This document shows positions 539-27,006 of a stretch of 32,000 bases of DNA, piece after piece (positions within the stretch are counted from its first letter, which is position 1; each line of letters begins with the position of its first letter). The DNA is taken from positions 240,001 through 272,000 of the forward strand of contig JASBSB010000003.1 in NCBI GenBank assembly GCA_030149205.1, given 5' to 3'. The notes under the pieces were generated by a model. It did no database searches. It was not told the origin of the DNA and saw only the letters and a program-made list of their open reading frames with translations. A program made the translations under genes and the position numbers. This DNA is from Candidatus Heimdallarchaeota archaeon (GTDB lineage Archaea > Asgardarchaeota > Heimdallarchaeia > Heimdallarchaeales > Kariarchaeaceae).

Positions 539-1549
539 TTATTTTTTCTTTATTTGGTTTGTAAACAGGAGACACTTAACAAAATGTCCCGGGACAAGTT
601 CAATGGTATCAGGAATTATTTCTGAACATTCTGGCATAGCTTCAGAACATCTTGGATGGAATCTACAACCCGTGGGGGGATTAATTAAATTCGGAATTGT
701 TCCTGGAATTGAATATAACTCATCATCCCTTCTAGCGTTTGCATCAGGTATTGATTTCAGTAAAGCTTTAGTATATGGATGTTTAGGCTCTTTGAAAATT
801 GTTACAACATCTCCGATCTCAACTATATTTCCTGCATACATCACAGCAACTCGGTCACACATTTCAGCTATGACTCCTATATCATGGGTAATTAAAATGA
901 TAGAAGTCTGAAACCTATTTTTTAGGTCTCTCATTAGGTCTAATACTTGGGCTTGAATTGTAACATCAAGTGCTGTAGTTGGTTCATCTGCTATTAATAA
1001 GTCAGGATTACATGATAAGGCTAGAGCAATCATGACTCTCTGCCTCATTCCTCCTGAAAACTGCCAAGGATAATCTTTCAATCTTTTTCCTGCGTCAGGG
1101 ATCCCAACTAAATCAAGTAAAGTTCGGGTTTTTTCAGTTGCTTCATCTTTGGTTACCTGTTGATGAAGCATTATAGCCTCATTAATCTGATCCTCTATCG
1201 TCAAAACAGGGTTGAGTGAAGTTAGAGGATCTTGAAATACAACTGCAATTTGATTCCCTCGGATTGATCTCATACCAGATTCTGGAACCTCTAAAATTGA
1301 TTTCCCTTTCCAGAGAACATCACCACTAATGATTTTTCCTGGAGGTTGTGGAATTAGTCGAAGAATGGACATTGCTGTTACAGATTTTCCAGAGCCTGAC
1401 TCTCCAACTAATCCAAGAACTTCACCTCTTTGAACATCGAATGTAACTCCATCCACAGCTTTTACCACACCATCTTCAGTAAAAAAATAGGTATGAAGGT
1501 CATCAACTTTTAAAATAATATTTTCATCAAAGGTCTCTTCTTTTGACAT
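539..1549 (-). CDS. oppD: Oligopeptide/dipeptide ABC transporter ATP-binding subunit (OppD/DppD family)
   Basis: Walker A GESGSGKS, signature FSGGMRQR, Walker B LLIADEPTTALD, H-loop ITHD, C-terminal HPYT...GCRFHPRC oligopeptide-ABC tail. Confidence 0.93.
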   Translation of the reverse strand: MSKEETFDENIILKVDDLHTYFFTEDGVVKAVDGVTFDVQRGEVLGLVGESGSGKSVTAMSILRLIPQPPGKIISGDVLWKGKSILEVPESGMRSIRGNQIAVVFQDPLTSLNPVLTIEDQINEAIMLHQQVTKDEATEKTRTLLDLVGIPDAGKRLKDYPWQFSGGMRQRVMIALALSCNPDLLIADEPTTALDVTIQAQVLDLMRDLKNRFQTSIILITHDIGVIAEMCDRVAVMYAGNIVEIGDVVTIFKEPKHPYTKALLKSIPDANARRDDELYSIPGTIPNLINPPTGCRFHPRCSEAMPECSEIIPDTIELVPGHFVKCLLFTNQIKKK

Positions 1550-1674
1550 AAAGTTAGTACTCCGTTACATGCTTAATCCTTTGGACTGTTTTAAATGTGC
1601 TTAGTTTGACACATATTTAATGTGGCATTCTTTAATTCTAAATATTTGCATTTAGGAAGTATGAGCTAAGAATT

Positions 1675-2331
1675 TCAGCTTGATAGCTTTTTTTCAGAGA
1701 CCCCAATTTTTGGACAGAAGTTTGTCAAAACACAATTTTGACAATCAGGATTTCTTGCTTGACAAATCGCCCGTCCATGAGAAATGATTAAATGAGTGAT
1801 TTCAACCCAATGGTCTTTAGGTACAATTTTCAAAAGCTGTTCCTCAATCTTTAGAGCATTTTTGCCAGTTACCATGCCTAACCTATTGAACACACGTATC
1901 ATATGAGTGTCTACTGTTATACCAGAATCCTTTATCCCAAACCCGTTTCCAAGTACAACATTTGCAGTCTTACGTCCCACACCTGGAAGTTGAATTAATT
2001 CACTCATTGAATTTGGGATCTTCCCATTAAATTCACGAACCACGATATTTGCCATATTTTTAAGGTTAGTCGCCTTGGTGTTATACAAACCAATTGATTT
2101 TATCACTTTCTTTAATTGACCCAAGTCTGCTTCGGCAAGGGAATTGATATTAGGATATTTATTGAACAAAACCTTAGTTACTTTGTTTACTGCATTATCA
2201 GTAGTTTGTGCAGAAAGCATTGTTCCAACCAATAACTCATATACATTTGTAAAATCTAAAGAAATCTTAGCCTCAGGGTATTCTTCCTCCAACAATCTAA
2301 TAATCATTTCTATGGGTTTAGGTTTGGTCAA
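1675..2331 (-). CDS. nth: Endonuclease III (HhH-GPD DNA glycosylase/AP lyase)
   Basis: LSAQTTD, HhH LPGVGRKTAN (catalytic Lys), VDTH (catalytic Asp), [4Fe-4S] motif CQARNPDCQNCVLTNFC (C-x6-C-x2-C-x5-C). TTG start 2 nt after the upstream gene's stop. Confidence 0.96.
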   Translation of the reverse strand: MTKPKPIEMIIRLLEEEYPEAKISLDFTNVYELLVGTMLSAQTTDNAVNKVTKVLFNKYPNINSLAEADLGQLKKVIKSIGLYNTKATNLKNMANIVVREFNGKIPNSMSELIQLPGVGRKTANVVLGNGFGIKDSGITVDTHMIRVFNRLGMVTGKNALKIEEQLLKIVPKDHWVEITHLIISHGRAICQARNPDCQNCVLTNFCPKIGVSEKKLSS

Positions 2332-2333
2332 AT

Positions 2334-4112
2334 TTAAATCGACCTCGGAGTTAGAAGTTTTTGGACCGCTAGCTCTTTTCTTTTAATTTCGTTAGTTAGT
2401 TTGTCAATGTTTGAGGAGTACACACGTTGTTTACTTTTAAGAGCCCTTAATTCGTTGTTCAATGATTGCCATCGTTTGTCGAATTTCTGTTTCTCAATTC
2501 TTTTTTGTTTTATATCGTTCTCAATTTGAAAATGTTTTGATCCATCATCTTTTACTAATCTCTTAGTTTGTAATTTAATGGCAAGAACAATTGTCTTTCT
2601 ATCAGAGTTTAAAGAAGAGAGTTTCTGTTCATATGAAAGGATAGTATCTGAAATTTGCTTCATCTTTCTTCTCTCTTCCTTTAATTTTGCATCTATCCTT
2701 CTAATTTTGGCCTTAACCTCCGTTACCTGTTGAATGTCAGAATTAAGGCGGTTAAAATATCTTATTAAGAAATTGGAGGATGAGGACTTTTTACGGGTTC
2801 CAATATTTCGATTATTCAGAAAAGCTAAACGTTCTTTCAAGTCACCAACATAAATTATAGATGTCCCGTTTATTTCTGTAAATGATTCTGGAACACTGGT
2901 AACAATTAGTGATTCAATCCTTTTACACTGGTGTTTCTCTCGAATAAAATTTTCTTTTATAGGGATCTTCTCTATTGCCTGTTGGTAATATTTCTTACGA
3001 ACAGGAATATTTTTCCCAAATATCCATCCCCTCCAGTAGCTAAAATCCTTTACCTCGCAATGGATCCAAGTGTCTTGATCTTTGAGAGATTGTGCAATGA
3101 TGTCAATTTCAGTAACAGTCTCCCCTTCTGTGTCAAAAACTTCTTTGTTAGTCTCGATAACTTTCCAAAATCCAGTTGATTCTATCACTTCCTTAACAGC
3201 TTTTTCTGCACGCGCTGATTTTTCATCCAACTTTTCCTTTTGGAATCCTTTGAGAAACATAACAAACATGGTTAAAGCTCCTAATCCAATTTCAAGTTCA
3301 GCCTTTCCACCATCCTCACCTAATTTAATGTGTGGGACAAAATGTGGACGTGAATCTGTCGATTTGGAGACATCCAACTGATTGAGGGCTTTGAACACCT
3401 TAGACTTTGTTGGAAGTCTAATTTTCAGTGACCCATTTCTCCGATGCTTTTTATCATTTAGAAGAATATTCCCGTGAAATTCAATAATTAGTCTGACAGA
3501 GAATTGAGATAACTTATTCAAAGAACGATAAAAAGTTAATGGAGTTCGTAATAACATTAGAATACTATTTTCCCAATACAATTTTCTAAGAGACAATGAT
3601 TGATAGAGTGGATCCAGATGCCGTTGTTGTTTATTTAACCTCGAATGCATAGAATTCTTTTTTGCTACCTCTAACCTGTTTCCAGTAATATCAACATTGA
3701 AGGAATTAACAGTTTCAAAATGGTGGATACCAATTTCTGTCTCTTCAATTGAGTTAGATTCTTCATTAAACTTTAACAAACCATATCTTATTGATTCTCT
3801 CACAGCGTGGATCACCATTAACTCAGAACCAATGATACCAATTCGAGAAGATACTTCTTCGATTGACATTAGAGATTTTTCAGGTGTCCAAGACCAACGA
3901 TAAATTGTGTGGATTGCAACATCAAATCCTGTTAGATGAGTGATTTCACTTAAATTAGGATCATTTGTGTAATTTTCTCTTTCTCGTAGAAGTTGAAGTA
4001 TCAGTTTGTCTTTTGGCTGTGATTTAGCTAGCTTGTACATTTGAGATTTTAATTCCTTCCATCTGCTTTCTAGCACTGTTGGGAAAGGAATCACATTTGT
4101 GGCTTCTATCAT
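2334..4112 (-). CDS. Hypothetical protein with central PD-(D/E)xK nuclease-like domain and C-terminal coiled coil
   Basis: 592 aa ORF. ARAEKAV helix, then EIDIIA...IHCEVK (3110-3048), the restriction-endonuclease-fold pattern. The last ~140 aa are Lys/Glu/Gln-rich heptad-like sequence. Confidence 0.6.
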   Translation of the reverse strand: MIEATNVIPFPTVLESRWKELKSQMYKLAKSQPKDKLILQLLRERENYTNDPNLSEITHLTGFDVAIHTIYRWSWTPEKSLMSIEEVSSRIGIIGSELMVIHAVRESIRYGLLKFNEESNSIEETEIGIHHFETVNSFNVDITGNRLEVAKKNSMHSRLNKQQRHLDPLYQSLSLRKLYWENSILMLLRTPLTFYRSLNKLSQFSVRLIIEFHGNILLNDKKHRRNGSLKIRLPTKSKVFKALNQLDVSKSTDSRPHFVPHIKLGEDGGKAELEIGLGALTMFVMFLKGFQKEKLDEKSARAEKAVKEVIESTGFWKVIETNKEVFDTEGETVTEIDIIAQSLKDQDTWIHCEVKDFSYWRGWIFGKNIPVRKKYYQQAIEKIPIKENFIREKHQCKRIESLIVTSVPESFTEINGTSIIYVGDLKERLAFLNNRNIGTRKKSSSSNFLIRYFNRLNSDIQQVTEVKAKIRRIDAKLKEERRKMKQISDTILSYEQKLSSLNSDRKTIVLAIKLQTKRLVKDDGSKHFQIENDIKQKRIEKQKFDKRWQSLNNELRALKSKQRVYSSNIDKLTNEIKRKELAVQKLLTPRSI

Positions 4113-4422
4113 ACAATCTCATCCTATGTTTATGCTAGAGCCATTATGACAGACTTACAAAAATTCTGAGACTCAAAATTGGATTTATTATTCTCATCTG
4201 TAGCCTGAAAATTTGAATTAATGGGCACAATGTGGAAATCTGAAGTTGTCACAGTCTGAGAGTAGATTTCAAGAAAATCCACAGACCTAAATGGTTTATC
4301 GATTGTAGAATTAATCTCAAAATTATAATTTATTACGAGTTTTGTTATATTAAACATAATTTAATTAGCTTAAAATCCTTAATAGATGTTTCTTTATTAA
4401 TCGTGTGTGTTGTAAGTAAAAA

Positions 4423-4932
4423 TTAATCTGCCAGTATAACGATAGATTCCCCAGTTGGATATGGAGCAGTAACTTTCTTATGTTTTCTCCCCTTGGATTC
4501 AAAGAATATTTCTGCAAAGCGTTGTACCTTTTTTAATAGGGCTTTTGAAGCTTCAAGATCAACATGTTGTCTTGCATTAGAGGCGTCTCTCATAATCTCC
4601 CAAACTAGATCATTTAACTCTGGAAATTGTTCTAAATGTTTAGGTTTAAAATAATCACCCCAAATTACTCGAACTTCATGTTTTAAAGATTCTCCATGTT
4701 TTTCTTTGACGTCAACATATCTAGTATAGGTTTGAAGATACTCAGCACTGTTCTTATCCAAATTTTGCATCAGCATAACCATTCTAATTATTGTGTGAGC
4801 ATCCACCTGAGCTTGGTGTGGATCATAGATTCCACAGGGGACATCACAATGGGCGTAAACTCTCCCAGAGGAAAATCTCTTAAGAAGCTTTTTTAATGGT
4901 TTATTAGTCATGTTCATAATATTCAACTCCAT
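4423..4932 (-). CDS. sodN: Nickel-containing superoxide dismutase precursor
   Basis: Ni-hook HCDVPCGIYDP (His1 codon 4851-4849) after a basic leader ending in ..RVYA. Downstream helices carry KEKHGE and VIWGDYFK. Alternative starts at 4917 and 4911. Confidence 0.95.
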   Translation of the reverse strand: MELNIMNMTNKPLKKLLKRFSSGRVYAHCDVPCGIYDPHQAQVDAHTIIRMVMLMQNLDKNSAEYLQTYTRYVDVKEKHGESLKHEVRVIWGDYFKPKHLEQFPELNDLVWEIMRDASNARQHVDLEASKALLKKVQRFAEIFFESKGRKHKKVTAPYPTGESIVILAD

Positions 4933-5032
4933 TGAGTAACTACAAATTCATTTACTGCATTAAAGTTTAATGAAATAGGAATAAATATTGAGAAAAAATA
5001 CTTAGATTCAGTTACTAAATAGTGAATTCAAG

Positions 5033-5338
5033 CTAAATTTTCCGCCACATCCTCCCAACAACCTTACTCGATTTAATAAATCCAAATTTTCTACTGTCTG
5101 TGCTTTTTGTGGGATTATCTCCTAATACATAATACTCATTATTTTCTATTTTTGAAACACGCTTGATGTATAAGTCATTGTTTTGATGTTTAAATACTAT
5201 CACATCTCCAGTTTGTATTTCCTTAGGTTTTCGCAAAAGTATAAGGTCACCCTCCTTTAATGTGGGCTCCATACTCGAGCCAGACACGGTATAAACTTTA
5301 ATCCAAATCAGCGTGTAGAGGATCCTTAATATTCCCAT
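5033..5338 (-). CDS. sodX: NiSOD maturation protease (S26 signal-peptidase family)
   Basis: VSGSSMEPTL (Ser nucleophile), IKRV (Lys base), VLGDN...STDSRKFG. Short (101 aa) and directly upstream of sodN on the same strand. Confidence 0.88.
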   Translation of the reverse strand: MGILRILYTLIWIKVYTVSGSSMEPTLKEGDLILLRKPKEIQTGDVIVFKHQNNDLYIKRVSKIENNEYYVLGDNPTKSTDSRKFGFIKSSKVVGRMWRKI

Positions 5339-5410
5339 AAATAGAATATTCTATCAAACTATTTAGATTTTTCACTTTTAATTAGGAGTCTCTTTTTTTA
5401 ATAAGCTTAA

Positions 5411-5800
5411 ATGATACTCTATCTTGTGGCGCTCTCAAGTATCAACACGAAAACTACACAATTAAAATTCTCATATTTCGATTTCGTTCTGTTTTCAGTA
5501 GGTATTCCTGATGTTCCGGTTACAATCGAAGAAGGGTTTTTTACATTCAAATACCTGATTGCAAATTTGAAAACTGTAATTCCTAATTTCAATCTAACAA
5601 AAGAAAATTACATCAAGTTTCTCTACAAGCTTGAAAAGAGAGGTTTGATTCAGTTCCAAAAGATTACAGAAAATAAACCCACGTTATTTCTTATGCTCAC
5701 AGAAATTGGAAAGTCCACGTATGAATTCACTATAAAATCAAACGCGGATCCAAAATTTTTCAATTTAGAAAAAGAACTCTCAGATGTATATTGGTCCTAG
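5411..5800 (+). CDS. Hypothetical protein, possible winged-helix DNA-binding protein
   Basis: 129 aa. YIKFLYKLEKRGLIQF...LMLTEIGKSTYE resembles a wHTH recognition helix, wing and LTxxG motif. Divergent from sodX. Confidence 0.5.
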   Translation: MILYLVALSSINTKTTQLKFSYFDFVLFSVGIPDVPVTIEEGFFTFKYLIANLKTVIPNFNLTKENYIKFLYKLEKRGLIQFQKITENKPTLFLMLTEIGKSTYEFTIKSNADPKFFNLEKELSDVYWS

Positions 5801-6562
5801 TTAATTTTGTAAGATTTGCTCTATTAATGCAATTATCTTTTCAATCTTAGATATATTGTCACGTGCGTCAGCTTTCCTTTTTTCGTAAACTTCATCGATA
5901 ATCTCCCCGGTTTGTGATTTAATGTATAACAACTCTATCTGTCTTCTTGATTCTTCCAATTGATCATGAAGTTCTTTCTGCCAAGACCTAAGATATCCAT
6001 CAACAGTGCTTTTTTGATCTTCAAGTAATTTTATATTATCTAAATATTGTTTTTTTGCTTCTGTAAGAGTTTGCTTTGATACTGATTTATCATTCTTCAT
6101 TTGACTCAGTTTATGATATCTTTCACGTGCTGAATCTAGCTCATCAACAAGAACTTCAACAGGAAGGACATCAGGGAGATTTCCAAATTTTGATTCTCTC
6201 TCATTTAATTGCCTTACCTCTTCTTTTAATTTTTTAATTTTAGGTGCTATATATTCACGACTTACAATTCCAGACTTTAATTGTTCAAGCAATGAATCTA
6301 TCTCCTCAATGAGTTCAGACTTTTGTTTTACAATTTCTTTTCTTTCGCTTCTTGAGGTCAGAATTTTCATGTACAAGTCCTTATCAAACTCAACCTGTTT
6401 CTTGGGAAGAGCTGATTCGAATTCAGAGTCATCTTCCAAGGAAACCTTTTCTGTATCAACATTGACTCGAGCTGCAGGAGTGGTGTATTCTAATTTAGAA
6501 CCACAAAACCTACAATACTTCCAGTTTGAGGCAATTTCTTGTTCACAGGATGGGCATTTCAT
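5801..6562 (-). CDS. Zinc-ribbon + coiled-coil protein (C-terminus CdvA-like)
   Basis: N-terminal CPSC...CRFC ribbon, acidic linker, then long amphipathic helices with LKSGIVSREY, KSVSKQT and SQTGEIIDEVY turn motifs. Confidence 0.65.
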   Translation of the reverse strand: MKCPSCEQEIASNWKYCRFCGSKLEYTTPAARVNVDTEKVSLEDDSEFESALPKKQVEFDKDLYMKILTSRSERKEIVKQKSELIEEIDSLLEQLKSGIVSREYIAPKIKKLKEEVRQLNERESKFGNLPDVLPVEVLVDELDSARERYHKLSQMKNDKSVSKQTLTEAKKQYLDNIKLLEDQKSTVDGYLRSWQKELHDQLEESRRQIELLYIKSQTGEIIDEVYEKRKADARDNISKIEKIIALIEQILQN

Positions 6563-6640
6563 CTATATTTAAGTTTGACTGAACAATATAATAAAGGTTA
6601 CAGAACTTCAAGTTAGATATGCTTTTTATTAAGGACTAGT

Positions 6641-7606
6641 TCATTCCCCAATTAACTTTTCATCCTCAAGGTATCTTCCAGCATCTATAGCAGCCTTGCA
6701 ACCTTCCCCTGCAGCGGTTATAGCTTGTCGATAACGAATGTCAACAACATCCCCTGCAGCAAACACTCCTGGAACATTAGTCATTGTATGATCAAAATGT
6801 TTAATATATCCAACTTTGTCCATTTCTATCTGATCTTGGAAGATTTTTGTATTTGGGGTATGACCTATGGCAATAAACAACCCTGCAACTGATAGGTTTC
6901 TAGTACTATGTGTATTTACATTTTCAAGGACAACAGCATTAACTTTTTCGATAAAACCCTCTTTAAGACTTAAAACATCTTTTACAACGCTATCCCAGAT
7001 TACTTCGATTTTAGAATGTTCAAGAACTCTGTCCTGCATGATCTTAGATGCACGAAACTCATTTCTTCTATGGATGACATAAACCTTGGATGCATATTTA
7101 GTCAGAAACAAAGCCTCTTCCATTGCTGTGTCACCTCCACCAACAATAGCAACCTCCATACCCTTGTAGAAAGCACCATCACAAGTTGCACAGGAGGATA
7201 CTCCAGAACCAATCAACTTTTGTTCAGATTCTAAACCTAACCACTTCGCACTGGCACCGGTTGTAATTACAACAGAGTTTGTTTTGTACTCTTCATCATA
7301 GGTCTTTACCGTAAATGGTCTATGTTTGAAATCAACCTCTACCACATCTGTGTTAATTATTTCAGCACCGAATCTTTCAGCTTGTCTTCGCATTGATTCC
7401 ATTAAATCTGGACCTTGAATTCCCTCTTGAAACCCAGGAAAATTTTCAACTTCGGTTGTTAGCATAAGTTGGCCACCTGCCTGATAACCTGCAAGGACAA
7501 GGGGTTTTAATTCTGCTCTCCCTAAATAAATCCCTGCGGTATATCCAGAGGGGCCTCCACCAATTACAATTACATTTCGAACTTTTGAGTTCTCTTGTTC
7601 TGACAT
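6641..7606 (-). CDS. trxB: Thioredoxin-disulfide reductase
   Basis: GGGPSG FAD site, redox CATC, GGGDTA NADPH site, HRR, GVFAAGD. Confidence 0.97.
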   Translation of the reverse strand: MSEQENSKVRNVIVIGGGPSGYTAGIYLGRAELKPLVLAGYQAGGQLMLTTEVENFPGFQEGIQGPDLMESMRRQAERFGAEIINTDVVEVDFKHRPFTVKTYDEEYKTNSVVITTGASAKWLGLESEQKLIGSGVSSCATCDGAFYKGMEVAIVGGGDTAMEEALFLTKYASKVYVIHRRNEFRASKIMQDRVLEHSKIEVIWDSVVKDVLSLKEGFIEKVNAVVLENVNTHSTRNLSVAGLFIAIGHTPNTKIFQDQIEMDKVGYIKHFDHTMTNVPGVFAAGDVVDIRYRQAITAAGEGCKAAIDAGRYLEDEKLIGE

Positions 7607-7667
7607 ACATTAAATCTATGTTCAATCTTTAAAATAATTTAGGTTAGATTTATGATACTAGGCACAA

Positions 7668-8453
7668 TTAATTTTCATCTGGGAACTTGACTTTTGATAC
7701 CTTTGGCTTACTGTATGACTCTTTTATCGGAGTGACCACTGGTTTGACCAATTCATCATTTAAGGATGAAGCCTCTTTAAATTCTTTTTCTGCTTCTTCC
7801 ATATCTTCCTCAGTTGTAAACTTCCAACCTTTGAGTTCCATTGAAAAATATACATCATCCTTCCCTGGGCAACTCACACGAATTGTCAATTGGTTTTCAT
7901 TATGATCAATTATCTCTGGATGTAGACATTCTTCTTTCAATTTTTCAAATAGAAATTCCACATAAGCCCTGGAAATAATTTCTGTGTTACTGCTTAAAAT
8001 CTGTTTCCCAATAGATCCAAGTTCGTAATGAACCTTTCTACCTACTTTGGTTGCCTGAACTAGTCCAGTTTTTTCGAGTCGAGAAATGTGATGCCTTATA
8101 GTATCATGATGGAATTCAAGATCTTCTGATATTTGTGTTTGATAACATCCCGGATTGTTTATGACGTATTCAAAGATTTTTTGTGTTAGGTCATTTCGTA
8201 ATACAACAAATGCTTTTTCAATTTCTGAATTTCTTAACGCAGTTGAAAAAAAAACACGTTTTCCAGCAAATCTCATAGTTTTAACTAATCCCGCATCAGC
8301 TAATTTCTTTAAATGCCATGAAACTGTTCCGTGAGGAAGCTCTAACTCAGATGCAATCTCAAAAAAATATGAACCTGGTGATTCTGAGATAATCTGATAA
8401 ATTTTCCTTCTCAGAGGATGCATCAACAATACAGCACGCTTTTCTTTTCCCAT
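7668..8453 (-). CDS. Tandem winged-helix (ArsR-like) transcriptional regulator with extra C-terminal domain
   Basis: Two repeats: RRKIYQIISESPG..EIASEL..GTVSWHLKKLADAGLV and QKIFEYVINNPG..QISEDL..TIRHHISRLEKTGLV. Confidence 0.8.
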   Translation of the reverse strand: MGKEKRAVLLMHPLRRKIYQIISESPGSYFFEIASELELPHGTVSWHLKKLADAGLVKTMRFAGKRVFFSTALRNSEIEKAFVVLRNDLTQKIFEYVINNPGCYQTQISEDLEFHHDTIRHHISRLEKTGLVQATKVGRKVHYELGSIGKQILSSNTEIISRAYVEFLFEKLKEECLHPEIIDHNENQLTIRVSCPGKDDVYFSMELKGWKFTTEEDMEEAEKEFKEASSLNDELVKPVVTPIKESYSKPKVSKVKFPDEN

Positions 8454-8690
8454 CAGACTATTCTCCTAAATAAAAGAAACAAGAGTTTCTAAATAAAATT
8501 ACACCTAATTCTTTTTAAGGTTTCATAATATTCTGTAAACTAAATATAAATTGAAAATTTTTAATAAATTTTTAAATTAACTAAATATTAGATTAACTTT
8601 TGATTAAGGATAATTCTGTTCTGACGGAAATTCAATAATAGATTTGAAAATCGATGAGTTTATAGGGATTTAATTTATTTATATTATGAA

Positions 8691-9719
8691 ATGGTGTCGA
8701 GTTTAAACGAGTTGTTAAGTCTCCTTCTGTTTGGGTCAGTAGCACTTTTGTTAGCCGTTATTCTAATTTTCTTTTTATCACTCATGATTAGACGTACATT
8801 TCTAACTAAAATGATCAGGAATAATTTGATTTGGGTTCTCATTATAATTTTTATATCTCATGGGACTATTGCGTTTCTTGAAGTTTCAAATATTCTAACT
8901 GGAAATATCGTCTATTTTATAGAACCGATTACAATATTTGTTCTGATTACTTTAAAACTCTTAATTTTCTCAGATTTAAAAATTTTTAATGAAAGTCTTG
9001 TGAATATTATAGAAACTCAAGATGCGATTCTAAATAATAACTATGGAGCATCGAATTGGAAGAACATCCTCTACCAGGGTGAGTTAAAGTTAATCAAAGA
9101 AAATCTTAGTCTTATTTCAAATAAAATAAGGGAATCACGTGTCGATGAAAGTTTTTTTATTGAAAGGTTTACTCAGTTGGTAGGAACTTTTTCTAACGAG
9201 CTAAAAGAATTGTTAAACGAGTACAATTATATTTCAGAGTCTATAATTGAGTTAGAAACTATCCGAAGTTCAAATCGAACCTTTTGGGAACAAATTAATG
9301 AAACCTTAAAACATCAACAGGGAGTAATTTTGTCCTCTTTAAACCAAATGGAAAATGCGAGCTCATTAGTAAATACCTTAACAGACCAAATAAGTTTGGT
9401 TTCGATCAACGCATCGATTGAATCAGCAAAGGTAGGAGAACTGGGAGAGGGGTTCAACTTAGTTGCGGAAAATATTCGAGACTTATCTGTGAGGTCCAGA
9501 GATTCATCTGAAGACCTCAACTCTCGGGTGAAAGACCTAACTTCAGAACTTTTAATTGATCAGAAAGAAATATTTGACAAGGTGAAGAAGATTAACGTGT
9601 TTTTTGAAAGAATGGATGAGATATTGACATCAATAGGTAACCTGACAACACTTATTGGTTCATTTGTAATGCAATTAGATGATTATCAAATTCGCTCTGA
9701 GAAACTCCAAAGTATTTGA
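8691..9719 (+). CDS. Membrane-anchored methyl-accepting chemotaxis-like protein (divergent)
   Basis: Three N-terminal hydrophobic segments. QISLVSINASIESAKVGELGEGFNLVAENIRDLSVRS (9387-9497) aligns to the MCP signalling hairpin consensus QTNLLALNAAIEAARAGExGRGFAVVAxEVRxLAxRS. Confidence 0.75.
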   Translation: MVSSLNELLSLLLFGSVALLLAVILIFFLSLMIRRTFLTKMIRNNLIWVLIIIFISHGTIAFLEVSNILTGNIVYFIEPITIFVLITLKLLIFSDLKIFNESLVNIIETQDAILNNNYGASNWKNILYQGELKLIKENLSLISNKIRESRVDESFFIERFTQLVGTFSNELKELLNEYNYISESIIELETIRSSNRTFWEQINETLKHQQGVILSSLNQMENASSLVNTLTDQISLVSINASIESAKVGELGEGFNLVAENIRDLSVRSRDSSEDLNSRVKDLTSELLIDQKEIFDKVKKINVFFERMDEILTSIGNLTTLIGSFVMQLDDYQIRSEKLQSI

Positions 9720-24933: not shown

Positions 24934-27006
24934 ATGTCAACCAAAGCATTAGTAATAAACAAGGAACTAATAGCAAAATATTTTTCGGATAATCAAAACT
25001 TGGAGCTCGTACATGCATTAATCGGAATTCTGTCATTAAGACCAGTATGGAGTTTTAAAGAACTCTCACAAATACTTAAAATCAATCAGTTAACTCTTCA
25101 AGAATGGATTGGAAGAATATTACAGATGAATATTCTTTCTATGGAAATTCAAAAAAGCTCTGTAAAGTTAGGTCCAGGAAAAGTGATATTTGCACCTTCA
25201 GATGAGAAATTAACTATATTAGAAAAAACATATCTTGCCTATATTAAAGGGAGAATTCAATTTGATTTAAAAGAAATGGAAAGCCTTTTTGAATTAAACG
25301 AACATCAGGTATTCCTATTTCTAGGAAATTTTATAGCTAAAGGGTTTGTAGAAGTAGTTGGAGTTACAGGTAACACTTATTCAATGATCACAAAAATAAA
25401 AATCCCAAAAAAAACACTTGAAAGCCTTGAACCCCTTGATATACAAATACTAGGGTATGCAATGCTTAAGGAACAGATTACATTTAACGATTTGTCATCA
25501 GAATTGGATATTACTCTGTATAATGTTCAAACAGTGTTAATTGATCTCATTTTAAGTGAAACTATCTCAGTGAATTTTATTTATCAAAAACAGAGGTTTA
25601 AGGGAAGTCGATATTCATTTCAAGTCATACAGACTAATTTTCCATTTGTAGAGCTACCCTTCCATCAATTGAATGAAAAAGAAAGACTGCTTGTGGGCAT
25701 CACATCAATGTACCCAAATCTAAAGCTCCAAGAATTGATGAAACTTACAAAATTGCCTAAGCATCAAATACTGGATACAATTAGTAAGTTAACTGCAACA
25801 ACACAGTATAAATTTAAAATAAATAATGAAAATGTGATCTCGCTAAGTTTACCACCTGTACTGGATCAACAGGAAACTTTGACTGCATTGGAAGAAAATA
25901 GGCTGTTTAATTACCGAGAATTAGTGGGGAGAATCCAAACCACTCCAACAATTAAATTAGTAGATCTCGCAAAACATATGAACACAAATATTGACCAAAT
26001 AATCAAGGCCCTTGTGGTTCTCTATGGGAACAAAATTATAAACGGTGAGTTTCTTAATGGGGGAATCTTTAGATTAACAGGTATTCAACGTGATAACCAA
26101 ACCATGGATGAACTCTTAAATCCTGATGAAAAAAAACTCTTAGGCATGCTCATCGCTCATCAGAAAGTTTCCTGGTCAATGCTTCGGTTAACTTTAAACA
26201 AAAGTAATGAAGAGCTCAATAAACTAATATATTCGTTTATTTCTTTGGGAATCGGAAAAATTGGGGTTAAGAACAAAAAAGAGATTATGCTTATTCAAAA
26301 AATTGAGATTCCTCTTATGACCTCAATAGATGAGCTATCTGGGTTTCAAAAGGAAATCTTGGGTTATGTTAGCCTGGCCCGTAACCCAAATTTTAAAGAA
26401 TTAAGTTCAATATATAAGGTTGATAAAAACTCCCTCAAAGATGAAATTTACTTCCTTATTGGGTCTGGAATTATAGTTGGTATAATTTCAAAAAATCAAA
26501 TCCTCCCCACAAAAGTAAGGATAGAACCACCTAACGCCTCAATTGAGTCCAAGTCATTTCTTATGCAAAAAATTGCTGAACAACTCCTTACAGTTAAGAA
26601 TAGAAATAAGATTTCTATTAAATCTATAGCGAAAAGCCTTAAGGAAGACAAAAATGAGGTTTTACGTAACCTGTTTGTGCTCACATCTGAAGGGTTTATA
26701 ATTGGTACGTTAAGTGGAAACAAGCTCAAACTCACAAAGTCCTTAATTAAGTATCATAGTAAATTTACTTGTTTCTTCTGTGGAATTGAGATCAAAAGAA
26801 ACCAAGAGTTTTGTAAATCTTGTGGGAACAGGGTAATCCATTGTTCAGTTTGTAGGAGTGTGATCAGTGGTGAGGAAAGCAAACTGAAATGTCCAAGTTG
26901 TAATAACATTGCTCACGAAGAACATTTGATTGATTGGTTGCGAATTAAATCTGAGTGTCCAATTTGTAAAGTTAAGCTCAAACTCAACCAATTTGTTAAA
27001 ATATAA
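24934..27006 (+). CDS. Tandem winged-helix (PCI-like) repeat protein with C-terminal zinc ribbon and RING-like finger
   Basis: About eight ~50-aa wHTH-like units (e.g. QILGYAMLKEQITFNDLSSELDI...LIDLILSETI; EILGYVSLARNPNFKELSSIYKV...YFLIGSGIIVG). Then CFFC...CKSC (from 26770) and CSVC-x12-CPSC-x4-HEEH..DW..CPIC (26842-26967). Confidence 0.72.
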   Translation: MSTKALVINKELIAKYFSDNQNLELVHALIGILSLRPVWSFKELSQILKINQLTLQEWIGRILQMNILSMEIQKSSVKLGPGKVIFAPSDEKLTILEKTYLAYIKGRIQFDLKEMESLFELNEHQVFLFLGNFIAKGFVEVVGVTGNTYSMITKIKIPKKTLESLEPLDIQILGYAMLKEQITFNDLSSELDITLYNVQTVLIDLILSETISVNFIYQKQRFKGSRYSFQVIQTNFPFVELPFHQLNEKERLLVGITSMYPNLKLQELMKLTKLPKHQILDTISKLTATTQYKFKINNENVISLSLPPVLDQQETLTALEENRLFNYRELVGRIQTTPTIKLVDLAKHMNTNIDQIIKALVVLYGNKIINGEFLNGGIFRLTGIQRDNQTMDELLNPDEKKLLGMLIAHQKVSWSMLRLTLNKSNEELNKLIYSFISLGIGKIGVKNKKEIMLIQKIEIPLMTSIDELSGFQKEILGYVSLARNPNFKELSSIYKVDKNSLKDEIYFLIGSGIIVGIISKNQILPTKVRIEPPNASIESKSFLMQKIAEQLLTVKNRNKISIKSIAKSLKEDKNEVLRNLFVLTSEGFIIGTLSGNKLKLTKSLIKYHSKFTCFFCGIEIKRNQEFCKSCGNRVIHCSVCRSVISGEESKLKCPSCNNIAHEEHLIDWLRIKSECPICKVKLKLNQFVKI

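What the first reader, a model, noticed from the sequence alone, without database searches (positions are those of the whole stretch)
4423..5338. Complete nickel superoxide dismutase module (sodX-sodN) in a probable Asgard archaeon
Seen: an intact Ni-hook HCDVPCGIYDP (His1, Cys2, Cys6, Tyr9) behind a cleavable leader ending in VYA, with a dedicated S26-type peptidase gene immediately upstream. Established: NiSOD needs proteolytic exposure of His1 by SodX and is best known from actinobacteria and marine cyanobacteria, whereas characterised archaeal SODs are Fe/Mn enzymes. Inference: a horizontally acquired, self-contained maturation system giving an Asgard lineage Ni-dependent superoxide defence, which bears on oxygen exposure in relatives of the eukaryotic host. 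SodN also carries a C-terminal extension (GRKHKKVTAPYPTGESIVILAD).
Basis: partly seen in the sequence, partly recalled or inferred. Interest (0 to 1): 0.78.

Follow-up and report, generated by a model that had tools for sequence, protein, structure and literature searches.

The report
Nickel superoxide dismutase pair, Heimdall archaeon
This Heimdall-group Asgard archaeon really does carry an intact nickel superoxide dismutase gene and its maturation protease, but the pair is inherited across its family, is common in many other archaea and has already been listed for Heimdall genomes in print, so it is an ordinary find.

Summary
Window 4423-4932(-) encodes SodN (TIGR02753 168.7 bits, cut-off 90) with an intact HCDVPCGIY nickel hook behind a leader ending VYA. 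Window 5033-5338(-) encodes a 101-aa S26 peptidase that passes the SodX model (69.1 vs 63.25) and keeps its Ser/Lys dyad.

The locus is native, not contamination. It lies mid-way in a 474-kb archaeal contig of a Kariarchaeaceae-like Heimdallarchaeon, has the GC of its neighbours, and shares flanking genes with relatives. Its SodN falls in a Heimdall-only clade (98/87).

The novelty claim does not hold.
- Ni-SOD in Heimdallarchaeota LC_2, LC_3 and RS678 is already tabulated (PMC10783094).
- Inter-domain transfer of sodN into archaea is published (bioRxiv 10.1101/2021.01.12.426412).
- 47 of the 80 nearest species-genome loci are archaeal, and all 43 outside the Heimdall class have sodX beside sodN.
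- The C-terminal "extension" is a subfamily-wide feature, modelled as a beta-hairpin.

The survey adds three things. Among 379 Asgard species genomes, sodN occurs only in four Heimdallarchaeia families. None of 83 Heimdallarchaeia has Fe/Mn SOD. All 17 sodN carriers also have a heme-copper oxidase, and 15 of the 17 lack the superoxide reductase found in 59 of the 83.

No earlier scan note on this locus was seen.

The parts
4423..4932 (-). sodN, nickel superoxide dismutase precursor, 169 aa (stop codon at 4423-4425)
   Evidence: TIGR02753 168.7 bits (cut-off 90) and PF09055 152.3 bits. AF2 model mean pLDDT 89.4. The top 16 Foldseek PDB hits are all Streptomyces NiSOD, TM 0.88-0.93 by target.
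4852..4932 (-). Leader peptide, residues 1-27 if the first ATG is used. In-frame ATGs at 4917 and 4911 would give 22- or 20-residue leaders. It ends V-Y-A, so -3 is Val and -1 is Ala.
   Evidence: Read directly from the sequence. Leaders of homologues are 11-37 residues long and mostly end in xYA. Low pLDDT in the model. Cleavage is inferred, not shown.
4825..4851 (-). Ni-hook HCDVPCGIY, residues 28-36 (His1, Cys2, Cys6 and Tyr9 of the mature enzyme)
   Evidence: Invariant columns H28 C29 D30 P32 C33 G34 I35 Y36 in a 28-sequence alignment. His28 aligns to residue 1 of 1T6U and 1Q0D.
4426..4491 (-). C-terminal tail, residues 148-169 (G-R-K-H-K-K-V-T-A-P-Y-P-T-G-E-S-I-V-I-L-A-D), absent from solved Streptomyces NiSOD
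   Evidence: Lies beyond the end of the PDB alignment. A P-[YFW]-P-[TSN] tail motif is present in 94 of the 117 hook-bearing top homologues. Modelled as a beta-hairpin, strands 151-155 and 163-167, with block pLDDT 95-97.
4933..5032 (-). 100-nt spacer between sodX and sodN. It holds a T6 tract (4993-4998) and a TATA-like TTTAAT (4959-4964) about 30 nt before the sodN ATG.
   Evidence: Read from the sequence. That these act as an archaeal terminator and promoter is inference only. The bacterial-consensus scan was uninformative.
5033..5338 (-). sodX, small S26-type Ser/Lys peptidase, 101 aa. Ser22 lies in G-S-S-M-E-P-T-L (codon 5273-5275), Lys59 in Y-I-K-R-V (codon 5162-5164), and the G-D-N box is at residues 73-75.
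   Evidence: TIGR02754 69.1 bits (cut-off 63.25), PF10502 82.5 bits. The boxes align to S. aureus SpsB GESMDPTL, YVKRV and GDNREVSKDSR. A sodX-like gene lies next to sodN in nearly all related loci.
2334..4112 (-). Context: 592-aa protein of unknown function directly downstream of sodN, a conserved neighbour in the family
   Evidence: Homologues at 44-54% identity lie beside the sod genes in L003, L004, L007, L011, L012, L013 and L097, which come from five genera. No Pfam family.
1675..2331 (-). Context: endonuclease III-like HhH-GPD glycosylase downstream of the 592-aa gene
   Evidence: PF00730 93.4 bits. Syntenic in L012 and L013.
6641..7606 (-). Context: thioredoxin-disulfide reductase, 1.3 kb upstream of sodX
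   Evidence: TIGR01292 394.8 bits (cut-off 343.45). A homologue at 61% identity lies beside sodN in L097.

Best explanation
This is a functional two-gene nickel superoxide dismutase module, native to the chromosome of a Kariarchaeaceae-like Heimdallarchaeon.

Mechanism, inferred from the Streptomyces and cyanobacterial systems. SodN is made as a precursor with a 20-27-residue leader. The small cytoplasmic S26 peptidase SodX cuts after V-Y-A and exposes His28 as the new N-terminus. The free amine and imidazole of His1, the Cys2 amide, and the Cys2 and Cys6 thiolates then fold into the nickel hook. The four-helix-bundle enzyme dismutates superoxide by Ni(II)/Ni(III) cycling.

History. The gene belongs to the tailed SodN subfamily that is mixed among Chloroflexota, Patescibacteria and many archaeal phyla. 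It entered Heimdallarchaeia long ago and has since been inherited vertically in at least three families.

Role in this genome. It is the only superoxide-removing enzyme detected: there is no Fe/Mn SOD, Cu/Zn SOD or superoxide reductase. It accompanies heme-copper oxidases. The peroxide it produces would be handled by peroxiredoxins through the thioredoxin system.
For: Identity: curated HMM cut-offs are passed for both genes. The hook residues are invariant. The fold matches NiSOD structures. The SodX Ser/Lys/GDN boxes are intact.

Native locus: the window is C7:240001-272000 of a 12-contig genome, 93.5% complete and 2.8% contaminated, on a contig of 473,709 nt. Neighbouring genes are archaeal. 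GC is 0.36 and 0.35 against 0.345 for the window, and GC3 is like the neighbours. A second assembly of the probable source run gives the whole 7 kb in one 203-kb contig with no differences; this is the same data, so it is not independent. The flanking 592-aa gene and nth are syntenic in five genera.

Old vertical inheritance: sodN is in 10 of 11 other same-family genomes. The SodN tree puts 8 f1, 1 f4 and 2 f6 rows in one starred clade (98/87), with f1 as a subclade (90/88).

Physiological context, in 83 Heimdallarchaeia species genomes: Fe/Mn SOD 0 of 83, SOR 59 of 83 but 0 of 12 in f1, COX1 26 of 83 including all 17 sodN carriers. The own genome has no catalase and no Cu/Zn SOD, 9 AhpC/TSA hits and one NicO-type Ni/Co transporter.
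Against: No expression, cleavage, metal or activity data exist for any archaeal NiSOD that I found.

SodX scores higher against the generic bacterial signal peptidase I model (88.4 bits) than against the SodX model (69.1 bits, only 6 bits above its cut-off). Its assignment therefore leans on its small size and its conserved adjacency to sodN.

The 100-nt spacer with a T6 tract means co-transcription of the two genes is not assured.

The donor lineage is unresolved: the Heimdall clade sits in a polytomy.

The SodX tree is too poorly resolved to show co-transfer of the pair.
Confidence: 0.9

Rival explanations
1. The locus is bacterial contamination or a chimeric join in a metagenome-assembled genome.
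For: The genome is a MAG from a sediment metagenome. SodN of this subfamily is also common in Chloroflexota and Patescibacteria.
Against: The locus is mid-contig in 474 kb, with archaeal markers on both sides. GC and GC3 match the neighbours. The same sod genes with the same flanking 592-aa and nth genes occur in relatives from five genera. SodN clusters only with other Heimdallarchaeia. An independent study's run (X2) holds fragments 95-99% alike across 27 of 30 bins of the 7-kb stretch.
Confidence: 0.01
2. A recent, lineage-specific horizontal acquisition by this genome or genus alone, which is the flavour of the first reader's 'horizontally acquired' module.
For: The own genus has a unique gene order, sodX before sodN, against sodN before sodX almost everywhere else. 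Two genomes of the same family carry a different, tail-less SodN type, so replacement does happen.
Against: The genus clade nests inside a family clade, which nests inside a Heimdall clade (90/88 and 98/87). Flanking synteny is conserved with G004, which has the usual order. Base composition is ameliorated. A local swap of two adjacent genes explains the order.
Confidence: 0.05
3. The S26 gene is a general or secretory signal peptidase rather than a dedicated SodN protease, and SodN is matured by something else or not at all.
For: The generic signal peptidase I HMM scores higher than the SodX HMM. No assay exists.
Against: The protein has only 101 residues, with about 13 residues before the catalytic domain, which is too short for a membrane anchor. 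A homologous small peptidase with Ser and Lys boxes lies next to sodN in 43 of 43 non-Heimdall archaeal loci and 30 of 33 bacterial loci. The only TIGR02754 match in the genome is this gene.
Confidence: 0.04

Closest known systems
Streptomyces coelicolor / S. seoulensis NiSOD (SodN; PDB 1T6U, 1Q0D) with its protease SodX
   Same: The Ni-hook H-C-D-x-P-C-G-x-Y-D-P, the W-x-D-Y-F-K-P helix motif, the four-helix bundle (TM 0.88-0.93 by target, 33-36% identity), a cleavable leader, and a neighbouring small S26 peptidase.
   Different: Here there is a 22-residue C-terminal beta-hairpin tail that the solved enzymes lack, a longer loop between helices 1 and 2, and an archaeal host.
Ni-SOD entries of Heimdallarchaeota LC_2 (A0A1Q9N8I5, 157 aa), LC_3 (A0A1Q9NV50, 158 aa) and RS678, tabulated in PMC10783094 (Tables S7, S8)
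   Same: The same enzyme family in the same archaeal class. LC_2 is the lineage nearest to this genome by SerRS.
   Different: That paper only lists the genes. It does not mention sodX (0 occurrences), nor the spread across the family, nor the link to oxidase and SOR.
The 'Chloroflexota clade' of SodN with nested Patescibacteria and Woesearchaeota (Sutherland et al., bioRxiv 10.1101/2021.01.12.426412)
   Same: The nearest relatives here are the same mixture of Chloroflexota, Patescibacteria and DPANN archaea. That paper already infers several bacteria-to-archaea transfers.
   Different: That survey names no Asgard lineage (0 occurrences of Asgard or Heimdall) and does not treat sodX.
Marine-type SodN of Poseidoniales (MGII) and cyanobacteria
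   Same: Another archaeal NiSOD, acquired from bacteria (PMC10783094). By my reading of its motifs, the tail-less type found in two Kariarchaeaceae genomes (L009, L010) resembles this form.
   Different: The window's SodN is of the tailed type and is separated from L009/L010 by a 100/100 branch.

Membership tests
NiSOD (SodN; TIGR02753 / PF09055) | Profile score above the curated cut-off | tested here: met
   TIGR02753 168.7 bits against 90; PF09055 152.3 bits against 25.
NiSOD (SodN; TIGR02753 / PF09055) | Ni-hook H-C-x-x-P-C-G-x-Y supplying His1, Cys2, Cys6 and Tyr9 | tested here: met
   HCDVPCGIY at residues 28-36. The columns are invariant in 28 homologues. His28 aligns to residue 1 of the mature PDB chains.
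NiSOD (SodN; TIGR02753 / PF09055) | Right-handed four-helix bundle | tested here: met
   AF2 model pLDDT 89.4 with helices 39-56, 65-94, 106-122 and 126-146. Foldseek hits 1-16 are all NiSOD.
NiSOD (SodN; TIGR02753 / PF09055) | N-terminal leader removed so that His1 carries the free amine | not testable with these tools
   A leader of 20-27 residues ending V-Y-A is present. The cleavage itself needs protein chemistry.
NiSOD (SodN; TIGR02753 / PF09055) | Ni binding, superoxide dismutation, homohexamer | not testable with these tools
SodX (TIGR02754, NiSOD maturation protease; MEROPS S26) | Profile score above the curated cut-off | tested here: met
   69.1 bits against 63.25. The margin is small, and the generic TIGR02227 model scores 88.4. 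This is the only match in the genome.
SodX (TIGR02754, NiSOD maturation protease; MEROPS S26) | Catalytic Ser/Lys dyad and GDN box of S26 peptidases | tested here: met
   Ser22 (GSSMEPTL), Lys59 (YIKRV) and G73-D74-N75 align to the S. aureus SpsB boxes.
SodX (TIGR02754, NiSOD maturation protease; MEROPS S26) | Small soluble protein encoded next to sodN | tested here: met
   101 aa, 100 nt upstream of sodN. Adjacency holds in 43 of 43 other archaeal loci and 30 of 33 bacterial loci.
SodX (TIGR02754, NiSOD maturation protease; MEROPS S26) | Cleaves the SodN leader | not testable with these tools
   Needs co-expression and N-terminal sequencing.

The most novel reading that the evidence does not exclude
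Within the Asgard archaea, NiSOD is confined to Heimdallarchaeia lineages that carry heme-copper oxidases, and it is the only SOD type there: Fe/Mn SOD is in none of 83 species genomes. In those lineages it stands in for the superoxide reductase that the oxidase-less families keep.

On this reading, a switch from SOR to NiSOD (with SodX) marks the move towards oxygen use in the archaea nearest to eukaryotes. The nickel enzyme, not the Fe/Mn SOD of eukaryotic mitochondria, was then the host-side answer to superoxide.

I found no paper in the held library that states this pattern. Only two papers mention both Heimdallarchaeia and superoxide reductase.
Probability: 0.55. Interest if true: 0.45.

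Novelty: new member of a known kind. Interest (0 to 1): 0.25.

Why it matters
On its own it matters little. It is one more correctly recognisable sodN/sodX pair, in a class where Ni-SOD is already listed.

Its use is as a marker. In this class the gene goes with terminal oxidases and against superoxide reductase, so it helps sort aerobic or aerotolerant Heimdallarchaeia (Kariarchaeaceae-like and some Hodarchaeales-like) from strictly anaerobic ones.

It also shows that nickel supply, not iron or manganese, underlies their superoxide defence.

The conserved beta-hairpin tail of this large SodN subfamily has no solved structure, and would be a modest structural target.

Tried and rejected
- Expression: the look-up of sequencing runs listed no RNA holder, so nothing can be said about expression.
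- Read laying: X1 is the probable source sample, so its perfect 203-kb contig is not independent. X2 and X3 give only short low-depth contigs that do not bridge sodX-sodN. The single X2 joint '2815->5129' rests on a 24-letter side, and I ignored it.
- Bacterial-type promoter and terminator scan: 8 sites against 7.7 expected, and 0 terminators. It is uninformative for an archaeon.
- SodX phylogeny: only 36 rows passed my first motif filter, just 3 branches were starred, and long branches met. I take from it only that the nearest SodX rows are from f1 and f4. My first two regex filters for the Ser and Lys boxes were too strict and were replaced.
- Supplements of the Asgard oxygen-metabolism preprint (10.1101/2024.07.04.601786) are not held. 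I could not check whether its tables already separate Ni-SOD from other SODs.
- Atlas look-up of the 592-aa neighbour gave only weak leads: NERD in 14% and Hjc in 16% of cluster members.
- I did not run complex prediction. A protease with its substrate leader is the kind of pair the tool advises against, and six copies exceed its limit.
- A formal test of the NiSOD/COX1/SOR association was not run. Taxonomy gives only three informative independent contrasts, too few for significance, so I present the pattern as descriptive.
- One NCBI-named 'Odinarchaeota' SodN appeared in the protein search, but no non-Heimdall Asgard species genome had the gene. I did not resolve this.

Full report
**The observation.**
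- The larger ORF passes both curated NiSOD models by a wide margin: PF09055 152.3 bits against 25, and TIGR02753 168.7 bits against 90.
- The smaller ORF is an S26/S24 peptidase. It passes the equivalog model for the NiSOD maturation protease (TIGR02754, 69.1 bits against 63.25), although the generic bacterial signal peptidase I model scores higher, at 88.4 bits.
- Each model finds exactly one match in the whole genome, and it is this locus.

**SodN anatomy.**
- Residues 28-36 read H-C-D-V-P-C-G-I-Y. In an alignment of 28 homologues these columns are invariant.
- HMMER aligns His28 to residue 1 of the mature Streptomyces chains 1T6U and 1Q0D.
- The leader ends V-Y-A, which gives the small residues at -3 and -1 that S26 enzymes prefer. 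Among the 120 nearest database proteins the leader is 11-37 residues long and usually ends xYA. Two in-frame ATGs at 4917 and 4911 would shorten this one from 27 to 22 or 20 residues, so the true start is uncertain.
- An AlphaFold2 model (mean pLDDT 89.4) gives the expected four helices. Its 16 best Foldseek matches in the PDB are all NiSOD chains, with TM-scores of 0.88-0.93 by target.

**SodX anatomy.**
- The protein aligns to S. aureus SpsB at all three boxes: G-S-S-M-E-P-T-L (Ser22), Y-I-K-R-V (Lys59) and G-D-N-x-x-x-S-x-D-S-R.
- Only about 13 residues precede the catalytic domain. That is too few for a membrane anchor, as expected for a cytoplasmic SodX. This last point is inference from the sequence.

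**The C-terminal extension.**
- It is real relative to the solved enzyme: the alignment stops at residue 147, against 115 of 117 in the PDB chain.
- It is not a peculiarity of this protein. A K-G-x-x-x-K-x-x-x-A-P-Y-P-T-G-G-E-x-V-x-P tail is present in at least 94 of the 117 top homologues that carry the canonical hook.
- The model folds it with high confidence (block pLDDT 95-97) into a beta-hairpin, strands 151-155 and 163-167.
- It therefore marks a large SodN subfamily for which no structure has been solved.

**Whose genome is it.**
- The window is positions 240,001-272,000 of contig 7 in a 3.3-Mb, 12-contig genome. The genome is 93.5% complete and 2.8% contaminated, and the contig is 473,709 nt long.
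- The window also encodes proteasome alpha and beta subunits, ribosomal protein S3Ae, SerRS, and a RING/PCI protein.
- The nearest named relatives of its SerRS are Kariarchaeaceae, Heimdallarchaeota LC_2 and Hodarchaeota. Earlier notes of this scan on other parts of the genome say the same.

**Contamination or chimera?** I find no support for either.
- GC is 0.359 for sodN and 0.353 for sodX, against 0.345 for the window. Third-position GC is like that of the neighbours (profile).
- In relatives from five genera of the same family, the sod genes sit next to homologues of the same 592-aa unknown gene and, where the contig reaches that far, the same endonuclease III gene.
- A second assembly of the probable source run covers 1500-8500 in one 203-kb contig with no differences. 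This is not independent, because it uses the same data.
- A run from another study holds fragments 95-99% alike over 27 of 30 bins of that stretch.

**Distribution and history within the class.**
- sodN is present in 10 of 11 other species genomes of the same family (f1), 2 of 3 in f4, 2 of 2 in f6 and 2 of 22 in f5. It is in none of 31 f2 genomes and none of 12 f7 genomes.
- Across 379 Asgard species genomes that are at least 70% complete, it is found in 15. All 15 belong to those four Heimdallarchaeia families, and the other families gave no match.
- I built a maximum-likelihood tree of 91 mature SodN sequences. Eight f1 rows, one f4 row and two f6 rows form one starred clade (98/87) that contains nothing else, and f1 is a subclade within it (90/88). 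This is what an old acquisition followed by vertical descent looks like.
- The two f5 rows form a separate clade in an unresolved polytomy with DPANN, Thermoplasmata, Patescibacteria and Chloroflexota.
- Two f1 genomes (G006 and G008) carry a quite different, tail-less SodN, separated by a 100/100 branch. Replacement has therefore also occurred. The donor of the main clade cannot be named.

**The pair in other archaea.**
- Of the 80 nearest loci among 185,579 species-representative genomes, 47 are archaeal: Micrarchaeota, Aenigmatarchaeota, Woesearchaeota, Nanoarchaeota, Parvarchaeota, Thermoplasmata, Thaumarchaeota, Thermoproteota, 'Methanobacteriota', Marsarchaeota and Heimdallarchaeota.
- A small peptidase gene with Ser and Lys boxes lies next to sodN in all 43 archaeal loci outside the Heimdall class. 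In 32 it is directly downstream and in 11 it is on the opposite strand. It also lies next to sodN in 30 of 33 bacterial loci.
- The usual order is sodN then sodX. The window's genus (L001, L004, L005/L012, and the truncated L007) has sodX first, while its relative G004 keeps the usual order with the same flanks. This looks like a local swap.

**What is already published.**
- Sutherland et al. (bioRxiv 10.1101/2021.01.12.426412) report sodN in 26 archaea from several phyla. They infer repeated bacteria-to-archaea transfer, including Woesearchaeota nested among Patescibacteria within a Chloroflexota clade.
- The tables of that study list Ni-SOD for Heimdallarchaeota LC_2, LC_3 and RS678.
- Asgard papers mention 'superoxide dismutase' among aerotolerance genes without naming the metal.
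- NCBI already names such proteins 'superoxide dismutase, Ni' in Heimdallarchaeota, Hodarchaeales, Odinarchaeota and Woesearchaeota records.
- The find is therefore a further member of a known kind. None of these texts mentions sodX.

**What the survey adds.** These figures come from 83 Heimdallarchaeia species genomes.
- Fe/Mn SOD (PF02777) was found in none of the 83, while the same search rang in 12 of 14 control genomes.
- Superoxide reductase (PF01880) was found in 59 of 83: 29 of 31 in f2, 11 of 12 in f7 and 17 of 22 in f5, but 0 of 12 in f1 and 0 of 2 in f6.
- Heme-copper oxidase subunit I (PF00115) was found in 26 of 83. That includes every one of the 17 sodN carriers, and none of f2, f3 or f7.
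- Only G060 and G061 have both sodN and SOR.
- Within the single genus g9, the two genomes with sodN have COX1 and no SOR, while the third has SOR and neither of the others.
- The own genome has three COX1 matches but no catalase, no Cu/Zn SOD, no Fe/Mn SOD and no SOR. It has nine AhpC/TSA-type matches and one NicO-type transporter, and no [NiFe]-hydrogenase large subunit above the cut-off. A thioredoxin reductase gene lies 1.3 kb from sodX.
- Caution: related genomes are not independent, taxonomy gives only three informative contrasts, and many of the MAGs are 63-90% complete. The pattern is descriptive, not a tested association.

**Mechanism, and what is shown versus inferred.**
- Shown here: gene identity, intact catalytic and metal-binding residues, the predicted fold, conserved pairing, native location, family-wide inheritance, and co-distribution with oxidases.
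- Inferred from the Streptomyces and cyanobacterial systems: SodX cuts after Ala27, His28 then ligates Ni with Cys29 and Cys33, and the enzyme works as a hexamer.
- Not settled: whether the two genes are co-transcribed, since a T6 tract and a TATA-like box lie in the spacer; what the tail does; who the donor was; and whether the genes are expressed.

**Verdict.** Interest is low for the module itself. The NiSOD-for-SOR pattern in oxidase-bearing Heimdallarchaeia is a modest lead worth a proper reconciliation analysis.

Noticed in passing
window 2334-4112 (-): A 592-aa protein with no Pfam family. By my reading, its middle holds a PD-(D/E)xK-like motif (E-I-D-I-I-A ... C-E-V-K-D) and its C-terminus is a long coiled coil. 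It is a conserved neighbour of the sod genes in seven Kariarchaeaceae-like genomes, usually followed by endonuclease III. The atlas gives only weak NERD and Hjc leads.
   Followed up: partly
L009:1474-1929 (G008) and L010:1495-1926 (G006): Two genomes of the window's own family carry a different, tail-less SodN type (L-I-L-W-T-D motif, 125-129 residues mature). It is separated from the family's main type by a 100/100 branch, so this is a second acquisition or a replacement.
   Followed up: partly
L094:1767-2192 (-) (G069, second copy): A second SodN-like ORF (112 bits) whose N-terminus reads ...R-E-G-F-S-I-L-D-P-H. His1, Cys2 and Cys6 are all missing and there is no start codon after the preceding stop. 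It lies just downstream of an intact sodX-like gene, and a further S26-like fragment follows. It is either a decayed copy or a hook-less paralogue.
   Followed up: partly
G000 whole genome: No [NiFe]-hydrogenase large subunit above the cut-off (best 21 bits) and no catalase. There are three heme-copper oxidase subunit I matches and nine AhpC/TSA matches. NiSOD may be one of few nickel enzymes in this genome; one NicO-type transporter lies at C4:947752-948438.
   Followed up: no
window 24934-27006 (+): A 690-aa protein with weak PCI-domain and C-terminal RING-finger matches. It is a eukaryote-signature-like combination.
   Followed up: no
window 5801-6562 (-) and 5411-5800 (+): Between sodX and the thioredoxin reductase gene lie two small genes. 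One is a zinc-ribbon protein with a below-cut-off CdvA-like coiled coil. The other is a 129-aa protein with a faint winged-helix (Hpr/MarR-like) match, transcribed divergently from sodX, so it is a possible local regulator. It was not found beside sodX in relatives.
   Followed up: partly
window 8691-9719 (+): A methyl-accepting chemotaxis signalling domain protein (PF00015, 54 bits) in this archaeon. A homologue lies next to the tail-less sodN in L009.
   Followed up: no
P0005, P0086, P0116 (database homologues): A few SodN homologues have the hook glycine replaced (H-C-D-I-P-C-S-I-Y and H-C-D-I-P-C-K-I-Y), while His1, Cys2 and Cys6 are kept.
   Followed up: no
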